From Escherichia phage vB_Eco_ZCEC02: a stretch of DNA of 39,488 nucleotides. The stretch lies in the sequence record PV833354.1; one strand, given 5' to 3'. The first letter of the stretch is position 1. Every line of letters begins with the position of its first letter. Both the position numbers and the translations under genes were made by a program. Positions 37,284 through 37,917 of the stretch are shown piece after piece. The notes beneath the pieces were generated by a model. The model searched no databases. It was not told the DNA's origin and worked only from the letters and a program-made list of their open reading frames with translations.

Positions 37284-37444
37284 CGCAATCATGGTAACGA
37301 TTCATGAGCGGAAGACCTAAGGTCAGTACGTGGATAAAGACTCACTCTACTGACCTTAGCTACTGTAGTCAAGGACTTTAGGTAACACCTTAATAGAAGC
37401 TCACTTAGGGTCATCCTACTTATTGGTCTATCCTAGTGTCGCCT

Positions 37445-37486
37445 GACCTACGGTCCTTGACCTACAGTAGCTGCCACCTACGGTCA
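37445..37486 (+). repeat. short direct repeats (A/C)CCTAC(A/G)GT just left of the predicted genome end
   Basis: GACCTACGGTCC, GACCTACAGTAG and CACCTACGGTCA within 42 bp; analogous in position to the CCTAAAG repeat arrays flanking the T7 terminal repeat. Confidence 0.6.
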
Positions 37487-37521
37487 CTCGATGAGTTTTG
37501 GACCAAAAGTTTGAGACCACA

Positions 37522-37700
37522 TCTCACAGTTCAAGAACCTCAAGTCTCCCCATAGGCCCTCTTTCAGTCCAGACAAAAGGCCCTACCCCAGTCTATCATA
37601 AGGCTGGACCGATGGTCAAGACGTTAGGTCCACGATAGGTTGAGGCTATGGCTTAGGGAAGGACGATAGGTAGGGACTATGGGTCTTCTTTGAGTCTCTA
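37522..37700 (+). repeat. probable terminal-repeat region (single collapsed copy); mature genome left end predicted near 37522
   Basis: TCTCACAGT...CCCCATAGG at 37522 matches the first bases of the T7 genome (TCTCACAGTGTACGG...CCCCCATAGGG); CTCTATCTGT near 37686 resembles the end of the T7 terminal repeat; boundaries approximate. Confidence 0.5.
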
Positions 37701-37706
37701 TCTGTA

Positions 37707-37796
37707 TAACCATAGGTCCTACAACCTACAGTCCTACAACCTACAGTCTAACTAACCTACAGTATCAACCATAAGACACCAACACCTACGGTCCTA
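37707..37796 (+). repeat. array of CCTACAGT-type direct repeats right of the terminal repeat
   Basis: TCCTACAACCTACAG x2 in tandem, then AACCTACAGT, CACCTACGGTCC and ACCCACAGT. Confidence 0.6.
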
Positions 37797-37917
37797 GACC
37801 CACAGTTAATAGACACAAAGCTATAGACTTAAGGTCTTAAACATGTTAGTCAAAGACTATATCCTATTACACCATGGGGCCGACGATAGCTTAATCAATA
37901 TTATTTAAGATTACCTA

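What the first reader, a model, noticed from the sequence alone, without database searches (positions are those of the whole stretch)
37284..37800. Physical genome ends lie inside the window: terminal repeat flanked by CCTACRGT repeat arrays
Genes 19 and 19.5 (right end) are followed directly by left-end sequences (TCTCACAGT... at 37522, then promoters and gene 0.3), so the record is a circular permutation or concatemer-junction representation of a linear genome with direct terminal repeats. At least eight copies of (A/C)CCTAC(A/G)GT flank the predicted repeat on both sides, occupying the same positions as the CCTAAAG arrays of T7, which lie in the region used for concatemer processing. The repeat unit appears to have diverged while its arrangement is conserved.
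Basis: partly seen in the sequence, partly recalled or inferred. Interest (0 to 1): 0.4.

Follow-up and report, generated by a model that had tools for sequence, protein, structure and literature searches.

The report
Phage genome ends and flanking repeats
The window is a whole K1F-like (T7-family) phage genome written as a circle, so its true DNA ends and single collapsed terminal repeat lie at about 37522-37699, flanked by short repeats like those long known in T7; this is ordinary for the family.

Summary
The window is a circularly permuted Kayfunavirus (K1F-like) genome. Terminase gene 19 and gene 19.5 run straight into left-end sequence, then the ocr gene 0.3.

By homology to K1F and to SH3/SH4, whose ends were run-off sequenced, the left end is TCTCACAGTT at 37522. 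The one retained terminal repeat (TR) ends at 37699, range 37698-37704, just before an invariant ATCTGTA. That heptamer matches 6 of 7 bases of T7's concatemer-junction pause signal.

Seven exact ACCTACRGT units, all on the + strand, flank the TR: three upstream and four downstream. An eighth, ACCCACAGT, has one mismatch. None lies inside the TR.

In 17 Kayfunavirus junctions the upstream block does not vary in number or position. Two of its units form one arm of a 25-bp inverted repeat. The downstream array has 2-7 copies at a 14-16 nt period, with a conserved A-CCTACAG-TC core and uninformative spacers.

Other genera carry their own unit on both flanks: T7/T3 CCTAAAG, K11 ACCTGAGG, gh-1 CCATAGG.

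The architecture is known. The function of the arrays is unknown even in T7. Small-terminase docking is my best guess and is untested. Physical ends cannot be proven without reads.

The parts
36927..36940 (+). Phage-RNAP promoter core (ACTATCACTATAGG). It sits where T7/T3/K11 have phiOR and is oriented to transcribe 19.5, the upstream repeats and the TR towards ATCTGTA.
   Evidence: It is one of 11 matches in the window against 0.2 expected. T7 phiOR, T3 phiOR and K11 phiOR are annotated between gene 19 and 19.5.
37125..37283 (+). Gene 19.5 (52 aa), the last gene of the right end.
   Evidence: ORF. phrog_2193, E = 6e-25. Same position as T7/T3/K11 19.5.
37317..37359 (.). Perfect 12-bp inverted repeat (CTAAGGTCAGTA / TACTGACCTTAG) with a 19-nt loop, immediately after 19.5.
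   Evidence: Pair I7. It forms a hairpin in the DNA fold. The arms are invariant in 12 Kayfunavirus junctions while the loop exists in two unrelated versions.
37358..37472 (.). Long inverted repeat. Arms are 37358-37383 (AGCTACTGTAGTCAAGGACTTTAGGT) and 37446-37472 (ACCTACGGTCCTTGACCTACAGTAGCT). The 3' arm contains the first two ACCTACRGT units. It is a candidate counterpart of the T7 M-hairpin region.
   Evidence: Pairs I4 and I9. DNA fold of 37284-37521 gives -38.8 kcal/mol, z = -4.66, with 0 of 200 shuffles as stable. Arms are invariant even in L028, where the spacer is replaced. There is no covariation.
37446..37484 (+). Upstream (right-end) block of three ACCTACRGT units: 37446-37454, 37460-37468 and 37476-37484. 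It is the positional counterpart of the CCTAAAG units that lie left of the right-hand TR in T7.
   Evidence: The three sites are fixed at about -75/-61/-45 from the TR start in all 17 Kayfunavirus junctions. 12 carry all three as exact CCTACRG and 5 carry two, the third site being one base off or replaced.
37490..37521 (+). Conserved pre-terminus block GATGAGTTTTGGACCAAAAGTTTGAGACCACA, directly abutting the left-end cut site.
   Evidence: It matches the family-wide pattern AAAA(A/G)T(C/T)TGA + 7-8 nt + |(T/C)CTC seen in T7, T3, gh-1, K1F, SH4 and eight uncultured relatives.
37522..37699 (+). Single retained copy of the direct terminal repeat (about 178 bp; right boundary uncertain, 37698-37704). 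37522 is the inferred physical left end and about 37699 the inferred physical right end.
   Evidence: Start and end are identical or near-identical to the K1F (178/179 bp), SH3 (184) and SH4 (191) repeats. Linear records end at ...GAGTCTCT, just before ATCTGT. Experimental ends of SH3-5 are in PMC4925675.
37700..37706 (+). ATCTGTA, preceded by T. It matches 6 of 7 bases of the T7 concatemer-junction class II pause/termination signal ATCTGTT and occupies the same place, the first bases after the TR.
   Evidence: T7 and T3 have CCCT|ATCTGTT. K11 annotates a 'concatemeric junction' at 180-188. ATCTGTA is invariant in 17 of 17 Kayfunavirus junctions. The heptamer itself is not rare in the window: 13 ATCTGTW against 11 expected.
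37708..37806 (+). Downstream (left-end) array. Exact ACCTACRGT units start at 37724, 37739, 37755 and 37784. Variants are CCATAGG 37710-37716, CCATAAG 37769-37775 and ACCCACAGT 37798-37806. It includes a 15-nt tandem repeat at 37716-37763. It is the positional counterpart of the T7 array right of the left-hand TR.
   Evidence: period 15, 3.1 copies. Copy number is 2-7 across 17 junctions and spacing is mostly 14-16 nt.
38058..38087 (+). Sigma-70-type early promoter (TTGACA-18-TAGTAT), upstream of gene 0.3, in the region where T7/T3 have A1-A3.
   Evidence: Consensus scan, 10 of 12 matches. T7/T3 promoter annotation. Positional analogy only.
38291..38797 (+). Gene 0.3 (Ocr-like anti-restriction protein), the first gene of the left end.
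   Evidence: phrog_2568, E = 1e-51. Annotated as Ocr in the best-matching records.

Best explanation
The region 36927-37806 is the concatemer junction, or maturation region, of a K1F-like T7-family phage. It has been captured in a circularised assembly that keeps only one copy of the direct terminal repeat.

In virion DNA the genome would start at 37522 (TCTCACAGTT...) and end at about 37699 (...GAGTCTCT). The roughly 178-bp repeat would be present at both ends, giving about 39,666 bp.

By analogy with T7 (inferred, not shown here), replication makes head-to-tail concatemers with one repeat per junction. The phage RNA polymerase starts at the phiOR-like promoter (36927-36940). It transcribes through gene 19.5, the inverted repeats, the upstream units and the repeat, and pauses at ATCTGTA (37700-37706). 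There it meets terminase gp18/gp19 on a prohead. The repeat is duplicated and cut at its two borders.

The ACCTACRGTC units on both flanks are the Kayfunavirus version of the T7 CCTAAAG arrays. I take them to be selected cis-elements read by a phage-encoded factor. The small terminase gp18 is the likeliest candidate, helping to assemble or position the maturation complex. The upstream inverted repeat may be the counterpart of the T7 M-hairpin used in repeat duplication.

For: Identity and ends.
- The region is 92-95% identical to Kayfunavirus records.
- The window's end and start are contiguous in relatives.
- The cut-site context is identical to K1F/SH3/SH4, whose ends are documented.
- Linear records terminate at ...GAGTCTCT.
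- A family-wide cut-site pattern is present.

T7-like layout.
- A phiOR-like promoter lies upstream.
- ATCTGTA sits right after the repeat in 17 of 17 junctions. T7/T3/K11 have ATCTGTT there.

Selection on the units.
- Among 64 unique downstream units, the positions outside the search pattern (-1 A, +7 T, +8 C) carry 1.7, 1.9 and 1.3 bits. Spacer positions carry 0.1-0.7 bits.
- All units share one orientation, and none occurs in the repeat in 17 genomes.
- In 6 of the 8 genomes with documented or homology-inferred ends, the same 7-mer recurs at least twice on both flanks, against at most 1 of 500 shuffles. The 7-mer differs by genus.
- The other two, this window and SH3, fail that strict test. 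The window shares the degenerate unit CCTACRG, 3 up and 4 down; SH3 has 2 up and 7 down.

Candidate reader.
- T3 and T7 share CCTAAAG and have 93%-identical, interchangeable gp18. Their packaging specificity maps to gp19 and their promoters differ (PMC3276506).
- gp18 is said to recognise PacB (PMC9860248).
- Polymerase paused at the junction interacts with gp18/gp19.

Hairpin.
- Deletion of the T7 M-hairpin next to 19.5 impairs concatemer processing (PMC2680503, citing Kim et al. 1997).
- The window has strong, conserved inverted repeats in that place.
Against: - No reads or virion DNA are available, so the ends are homology-inferred. The right border differs by up to 6 nt among records (K1F 178, SH4 before ATCTGT, SH3 5 nt further).
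- ATCTGTA is not the strictly conserved 7-mer defined for T7 RNAP. The heptamer is not rare in the genome. Pausing by the K1F-type polymerase is untested.
- No experiment known to me assigns a function to the arrays in any T7-like phage. From my memory of the literature, the T7 19.5/M region is dispensable for viability.
- The inverted-repeat arms never vary, so there is no covariation evidence that they pair.
- The window's gp18 is only about 52% identical to T7 gp18. That is compatible with a changed specificity but equally with general divergence.
- Copy number varies 2-7, so no fixed number is needed.
Confidence: 0.85

Rival explanations
1. The short repeats are selectively neutral products of replication slippage or unequal recombination in non-coding end DNA. 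They persist by concerted evolution and no factor reads them.
For: The downstream array grows and shrinks by whole 15-16-nt tandem units. Examples are GTCCTACAACCTACA repeated six times in L015, CCTACAGTCTAACTA repeated five times in SH3, and CAACAACCATAGGTCT repeated five times in L012. Copy number ranges from 2 to 7.
Against: Among 64 distinct units the 10-nt core is nearly invariant while spacers are almost random. Orientation is uniform. The upstream three units are fixed in number and position in 17 genomes. The two flanks are not alignable outside the unit yet share it, and the shared unit changes in step in different genera.
Confidence: 0.2
2. The conserved inverted repeats and units act in RNA, not DNA. 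They would form a 3' processing or stabilising structure, for example an RNase III site, for the late transcript that ends after gene 19.5.
For: The region is downstream of a phage promoter. The gh-1 record annotates a putative RNase III stem-loop between its last gene and the repeat. The fold is strong.
Against: No intrinsic terminator is predicted. No Rfam family matches; the only hit has E = 0.79. There is no compensatory change in either main helix. This reading does not explain the second array, which lies beyond the repeat and beyond the pause site, or the unit shared by both flanks.
Confidence: 0.1
3. The units are read by the phage RNA polymerase itself, as weak pause or decoy sites. 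They resemble the promoter core: CTACAG against CTATAG.
For: ACCTACAGT is one base from the reverse complement (CCTATAGT) and also from the forward core (ACTATAGG) of the window's promoter. One genomic CCTACAGT at 6660(-) lies within a promoter variant.
Against: T7 and T3 have different promoter specificities but the same CCTAAAG unit. K11 shares the T7-type CACTATAGGGAGA core (my knowledge of the K11 promoter consensus) but has ACCTGAGG units. The units lack the upstream -8 to -17 recognition region.
Confidence: 0.07
4. This phage does not have fixed ends at 37522/37699. The genome is permuted, or cut elsewhere, and the junction-like sequence is only inherited.
For: No read data are available, and the record itself is circularised.
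Against: It carries a T7-type terminase (PF22530). The cut-site context is identical to phages with sequenced ends. All known Studiervirinae examined have exact direct repeats.
Confidence: 0.03

Closest known systems
Escherichia phage K1F and Citrobacter phages SH3/SH4/SH5 (genus Kayfunavirus): direct terminal repeats of 179-190 bp
   Same: The left-end start is the same (TCTCACAGTTCAAGAACCTCAAGTCTCCCC). So are the pre-terminus block, the repeat end (...GAGTC(T/C)CT), the ATCTGTA that follows, the three upstream units and the inverted repeats.
   Different: The repeat interior differs by substitutions and indels. The downstream array has 4 exact units here, against 4 in K1F, 7 in SH3 and 5 in SH4, with different spacers. 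This record holds one repeat copy and is permuted.
T7 and T3 concatemer junction: terminal repeat flanked by CCTAAAG short-repeat arrays. From memory these are called SRL and SRR in Dunn & Studier 1983; I could not read that paper here.
   Same: Gene order is 19, phiOR, 19.5, array, repeat, ATCTGT, array, early promoters, 0.3. Units are oriented on the + strand on both flanks. There is a conserved AAAAATCTGA-type block before the cut site.
   Different: The unit is ACCTACRGTC rather than CCTAAAG. The period is 14-16 nt rather than 12-13. T7 and T3 also carry 3 units inside the repeat, whereas Kayfunavirus has none. No phiOL-type phage promoter follows the left array here.
T7 class II (concatemer junction, CJ) pause/termination signal ATCTGTT
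   Same: It occupies the first bases after the repeat, is preceded by T, and is invariant within the genus. The pause is tied to maturation in T7.
   Different: The seventh base is A, not T. The motif is reported as strictly conserved for T7 RNAP, and the K1F-type polymerase has not been tested.
T7 M-hairpin region next to gene 19.5
   Same: Strong inverted repeats lie between 19.5 and the repeat. Deletion of that region in T7 gives concatemer-processing defects.
   Different: There is no detectable sequence homology to T7 in that stretch. T7's inverted repeats there are weaker (z = -2.3).
Small-terminase recognition arrays of other phages (lambda cosB R sites, SPP1 pacL/pacR boxes). This comparison rests on my own knowledge.
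   Same: Several short, oriented repeats lie next to the terminase cut site.
   Different: No binding data exist for T7-like gp18 on these units. The units here lie on both sides of the cut region and vary in number.

Membership tests
Kayfunavirus (K1F-like Studiervirinae) genome | High nucleotide identity and gene synteny with K1F-like phages. | tested here: met
   The junction region is 92-95% identical to many Kayfunavirus records. The early region is 99.8% identical. RNAP, gp18, gp19, gp19.5 and Ocr were identified.
T7-group direct terminal repeat / concatemer junction | Right-end genes (19, 19.5) directly adjoin left-end sequence through one repeat-length segment. | tested here: met
.
T7-group direct terminal repeat / concatemer junction | Conserved cut-site context: A-rich ...AAAA(A/G)T(C/T)TGA block, 7-8 nt, then TCTC...; C-run plus ATAGG about 25 nt inside. 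| tested here: met
   The window has ACCAAAAGTTTGAGACCACA|TCTCACAG...CTCCCCATAGG. The same pattern is present in T7, T3, gh-1, K1F, SH4 and eight uncultured relatives.
T7-group direct terminal repeat / concatemer junction | The repeat is physically present at both ends of virion DNA, with defined termini. | not testable with these tools
   This needs reads or virion DNA. Support is by homology only. Ends of relatives were determined by run-off sequencing (PMC4925675).
T7-type flanking short-repeat arrays | Arrays of one short unit lie immediately on both sides of the terminal repeat, in the same orientation. | tested here: met
   There are 3 units at 37446-37484 and 4 (+1 variant) at 37724-37806, all on the + strand. 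The same layout is seen in T7/T3, K11 and gh-1.
T7-type flanking short-repeat arrays | Unit CCTAAAG with a period of 12-13 nt. | tested here: not met
   The unit is A-CCTAC(A/G)G-TC with a period of 14-16 nt. This is a variant unit, not the T7 unit.
Class II (CJ) pause signal of T7 RNAP | Seven-base strictly conserved motif preceded by A, C or T. The motif, ATCTGTT, is read from the T7/T3 records. | tested here: not met
   The window has T-ATCTGTA, a 6 of 7 match. The position after the repeat and within-genus invariance are met.
Class II (CJ) pause signal of T7 RNAP | It causes polymerase pausing or termination. | not testable with these tools
   This requires in vitro transcription with the K1F-type RNAP.
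T7 M-hairpin | An inverted repeat between 19.5 and the repeat, needed for normal concatemer processing. | tested here: inconclusive
   Inverted repeats are present, strong and conserved. There is no covariation, no homology to T7 and no functional data.

The most novel reading that the evidence does not exclude
The flanking decamers are docking sites for a phage-encoded reader, most plausibly the small terminase gp18. Its specificity would have changed in step with the unit in each genus: CCTAAAG, CCTACAG, CCTGAGG, CCATAGG, CCTAATG and others. Together with the conserved inverted repeat, they would form a maturation enhancer that positions terminase and the paused polymerase for duplication and cutting of the terminal repeat. 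This would give a function to arrays known in T7 since 1983 (my memory of the literature) but never explained.
Probability: 0.3. Interest if true: 0.5.

Novelty: new member of a known kind. Interest (0 to 1): 0.22.

Why it matters
Practical value. The result says where this genome should be opened and that a roughly 178-bp repeat should be added at the right end. The true length would be about 39,666 bp. That matters for annotation, for synthetic rebooting and for engineering K1F-type therapeutic phages and transducing particles.

Biological value. The comparison gives a clean natural experiment. Each genus keeps its own short unit on both flanks of the repeat, next to an invariant cut-site pattern and a pause-like heptamer. 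That makes the old question of what the T7 flanking arrays do directly testable, by unit swaps between genera and by gp18 binding assays.

Tried and rejected
Computations that led nowhere.
- Rfam search of 36800-38300 gave only a chance hit, E = 0.79.
- The terminator scan found none.
- A covariation test of the two inverted repeats had no power, because the arms are invariant.
- Comparing gp18 identity with unit type does not discriminate. The window's gp18 is about 52% identical to T7 gp18, in line with overall divergence.

Controls that limit the claims.
- A strict test for one 7-mer repeated at least twice in both flanks fails for the window itself and for SH3. They mix CCTACGG and CCTACAG or lose a copy. 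The degenerate unit CCTACRG is shared 3 and 4 times in the window.
- The ATCTGTW count in the genome is not above chance, so its significance rests on position and conservation only.

Ideas considered and dropped.
- Primase sites: units do not share the GTC-type context across genera.
- Intrinsic bending: periods of 13 or 15 nt are out of phase with the helix.
- Both of these rest on reasoning alone.

Literature.
- One search on the bare string CCTAAAG returned only primer noise.
- The K1F genome paper and the phiYeO3-12 paper are not held.
- Searches for the M-hairpin and for descriptions of the T7 arrays found only indirect citations.
- No supplement is held for the T7 Pac plasmid paper.
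Full report
**What is in the sequence.**

The finding sits at the join between the right-end and left-end sequences of a T7-family phage.
- The terminase large subunit (gp19) is at 35064-36827.
- A phage-type promoter core, ACTATCACTATAGG, is at 36927-36940.
- Gene 19.5 is at 37125-37283.
- About 1 kb of non-coding DNA follows, then the Ocr-like gene 0.3 at 38291-38797.
- TCTCACAGTT begins at exactly 37522.

The region is 92-95% identical to many records of the genus Kayfunavirus, the K1F-like phages.

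The window's last 400 nt joined to its first 400 nt align as a single piece inside the early region of relatives. Identity is 99.8% and coverage 100%. The window is therefore a whole genome opened at an arbitrary point about 2 kb from the true left end. It holds only one copy of the terminal repeat (TR).

**Check of the repeats.**

CCTACRGT occurs 18 times in the window against 2.6 expected, and 0 of 100 shuffles reach 18. Seven of these lie within 37447-37792, all on the + strand and all preceded by A. Three are upstream of 37522 (37447, 37461, 37477). Four are downstream of 37699 (37725, 37740, 37756, 37785).

Looser relatives are CCATAGG at 37710, CCATAAG at 37769 and CCTAAGG at 37316.

At the rate of the 11 copies elsewhere in the genome, about 0.05 copies are expected in 347 nt of one strand. 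Seven is then far beyond chance: roughly 1e-13 by my Poisson arithmetic on the counts.

Tandem Repeats Finder reports a 15-nt period with 3.1 copies at 37716-37763. The stretch has the highest density of CCTANNG in the genome on both strands. The minus-strand copies lie mostly inside the repeat.

**Where the ends are.**

The K1F record starts with TCTCACAGTTCAAGAACC... and ends with ...GGTCTGTCTCTGAGTCTC. That gives a 178-bp exact repeat, reported as 179 bp in the literature.

SH3 and SH4 carry annotated repeats of 184 and 191 bp. Their ends, and those of SH5, were determined by sequencing off virion DNA until the signal dropped (PMC4925675).

The window is identical to these phages across the join ...GAGTTTTGGACCAAAAGTTTGAGACCACA|TCTCACAGTTCAAGAACCTCAAGTCTCCCC. 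It is near-identical at the other border...GAGTCTC(T)|ATCTGTA.

Independent linear records end at ...GAGTCTCT or ...GAGTCCCT (L016, L024, L026), one base further (L019) or five further (SH3). I therefore place the single repeat copy at 37522-37699, with the right border uncertain within 37698-37704. The virion DNA would be about 39,666 bp.

The cut-site context belongs to a wider pattern: an A-rich block ending AAAA(A/G)T(C/T)TGA, then 7-8 nt, then |TCTC or |CCTC, then a C-run plus (A/G)TAGG about 25 nt inside. This is seen in T7, T3, gh-1, K1F, SH4 and eight uncultured relatives.

**Comparison within the genus.**

I assembled 17 non-redundant Kayfunavirus junctions.

The upstream side is a fixed, almost invariant block.
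- Three unit sites lie at about -75, -61 and -45 from the repeat start in every genome. 12 of 17 carry all three as exact CCTACRG and 5 carry two.
- Two of the three units form the 3' arm of a 25-bp inverted repeat, 37358-37383 against 37446-37472.
- A perfect 12-bp inverted repeat at 37317-37328 / 37348-37359 follows gene 19.5 directly.
- As single-stranded DNA, 37284-37521 folds at -38.8 kcal/mol, z = -4.66, with 0 of 200 shuffles as stable.
- The arms of both inverted repeats never vary. Their loops are replaced: there are two unrelated loop versions for the short one, and a different spacer in L028 for the long one.
- The arms are therefore constrained, but there is no covariation to show that they pair.

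The downstream side behaves differently.
- It holds 2-7 exact units, and more when CCATAAG and CCATAGG variants are counted.
- It expands and contracts by whole 15-16-nt tandem units. Spacing is mostly 14-16 nt, or about twice that.
- Across 64 distinct downstream units, the positions outside my search pattern are strongly conserved: A at -1 (1.7 bits), T at +7 (1.9 bits) and C at +8 (1.3 bits).
- Spacer positions carry 0.1-0.7 bits. The selected unit is therefore about ACCTACAGTC.

No CCTACRG occurs inside the repeat in any of the 17 genomes. ATCTGTA follows the repeat in all 17.

**Comparison outside the genus.**

| Phage or group | Unit on both flanks | Notes |
|---|---|---|
| T7, T3 | CCTAAAG | Period 12-13 nt; 3 more copies inside the repeat; CCCT\|ATCTGTT at the right border |
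| K11 | ACCTGAGG(TT) | 'Concatemeric junction' annotated at 180-188 |
| gh-1 | (T)CCATAGG(AT) | ATCTGT at the border |
| Uncultured relatives (terminase 54-73% identical) | CCTAATG, CATCAAG, CCTCAAG or CCACAAG | Clustered downstream of the terminase gene; their repeat borders are only inferred |

In 6 of 8 genomes with documented or inferred ends, the same 7-mer is repeated at least twice on both flanks. At most 1 of 500 shuffles does this.

The window and SH3 fail that strict test. In the window, CCTACGG and CCTACAG alternate, so no single 7-mer reaches two copies on both flanks. SH3 has lost one upstream copy. The degenerate unit CCTACRG is shared 3 and 4 times in the window.

**How it most likely works.**

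Shown here:
- the layout;
- its conservation;
- selection on the unit relative to the spacers;
- the matching change of unit on the two flanks across genera.

Taken from the literature on T7 and T3:
- The packaging signal has a part recognised by gp18 (PacB) and a cleavage part (PacC) (PMC9860248).
- The concatemer junction carries a class II pause signal with seven strictly conserved bases preceded by A, C or T (bioRxiv 10.64898/2026.02.12.705533).
- T3 and T7 gp18 are 93% identical and interchangeable, whereas gp19 and end sequences determine packaging specificity.
- Deleting gene 19.5 with the adjacent M-hairpin gives small plaques and concatemer-processing defects (PMC2680503, citing Kim & Chung 1996 and Kim et al. 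1997).

Inferred for this phage:
- Transcription from the promoter at 36927-36940 crosses 19.5, the inverted repeats and the repeat. It pauses at ATCTGTA (37700-37706).
- Terminase is recruited there, and the repeat is duplicated and cut at 37522 and about 37699.
- The inverted repeats at 37317-37472 may be the counterpart of the M-hairpin.

For the units themselves, the best-fitting reader among the obvious candidates is gp18.
- The unit is shared by T3 and T7, whose gp18 proteins are interchangeable.
- It does not track promoter specificity: T3 differs from T7, yet the unit is the same.
- It does not track gp19-dependent packaging specificity.

This is an argument by elimination, not a test, and I give it about 0.3.

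**Rivals.**

- Neutral slippage explains the copy-number turnover. It does not explain the core/spacer contrast, the uniform orientation, the fixed upstream block or the matching flanks.
- An RNA-level role, such as an RNase III site or transcript end, is possible for the inverted repeats, and gh-1 annotates such a site there. However, no terminator is predicted, no Rfam family matches and no compensatory change is seen. This reading also does not explain the array beyond the pause site.
- A role as polymerase decoys is suggested by the one-base similarity to the promoter core. The T3/T7/K11 comparison contradicts it.
- Ends elsewhere, or headful packaging, is very unlikely given the T7-type terminase and the identical cut-site context.

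**Novelty and verdict.**

Direct terminal repeats of K1F-type phages are documented, and circularised assemblies that collapse them are routine. The T7 flanking arrays, the junction pause site and the M-hairpin are known. This is a new member of a known kind.

- an explicit description of the Kayfunavirus unit ACCTACRGTC and its 15-nt period;
- the fixed upstream block set against the variable downstream array;
- the inclusion of two units in a conserved inverted repeat;
- the genus-by-genus matching of units on both flanks.

These points sharpen an old, unanswered question but do not answer it. Interest is low to moderate.

Noticed in passing
window 701-714 (gene 1 at 788-3469): A perfect phage-RNAP promoter core (ACTATCACTATAGG) lies 74 nt upstream of the RNA polymerase gene itself. 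As I recall, T7 has no phage promoter ahead of gene 1. A promoter here would allow the polymerase to boost its own synthesis.
   Followed up: partly
window 37700-38290: No phage-type promoter (at most 2 mismatches to the core) lies between the terminal repeat and gene 0.3. T7, T3 and K11 all annotate a phiOL promoter there.
   Followed up: partly
window 37619-37590 (minus strand, inside the terminal repeat): A leftward sigma-70-like promoter, TTGACC-18-TAGACT with a TG extension, is present. It recalls the leftward E. coli promoter A0 that T3 annotates inside its terminal repeat.
   Followed up: no
window 37550-37690; L037 5560-5790: The right half of the repeat is built of modules ACGATAGGT and GACTAT(G/T)GGTC. 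These read as CCTATCG / CCCATAG on the minus strand, the opposite orientation to the flanking units. In L037 the modules are tandemly expanded, lengthening the repeat to about 231 bp.
   Followed up: partly
window, whole; e.g. 5572, 5840, 16619, 21149, 27327, 35887 (+) and 6660, 7615, 15243, 33390, 36099 (-): Outside the junction, CCTACRGT still occurs 11 times, against about 2.6 expected for the whole window, with no strand bias. One copy (6660, minus strand) lies within a promoter variant, ACTATCACTGTAGG. The rest are unexplained and may reflect codon or oligonucleotide usage.
   Followed up: no
L003 (OM256482.1, Providencia phage EPr2) 1-679: The record annotates the 179-bp terminal repeat at 1-179 and again at 501-679. 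The end of gene 19.5 and the upstream units lie between them. The deposited sequence therefore appears to start one repeat too early, which looks like an assembly or orientation artefact.
   Followed up: no
one search hit list (MT350292.1, PV615262.1): Records named Enterococcus phage EFA-1 and Acinetobacter phage vB_Aba_01KA match this Kayfunavirus junction at 85-90% identity. Such hosts are implausible for this genus and suggest contamination or mislabelling.
   Followed up: no
L028-L107, about 500-700 nt downstream of the terminase gene; T7, T3, gh-1, K11 right ends: A strongly conserved pattern marks the right-end cut site across Studiervirinae and more distant relatives: (c)CTTTAAGAAT..ACCA.AAAAATCTGA + 7-8 nt + |(T/C)CTC, then a C-run plus (A/G)TAGG about 25 nt inside. 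It could be used to predict genome ends in unpolished assemblies.
   Followed up: partly
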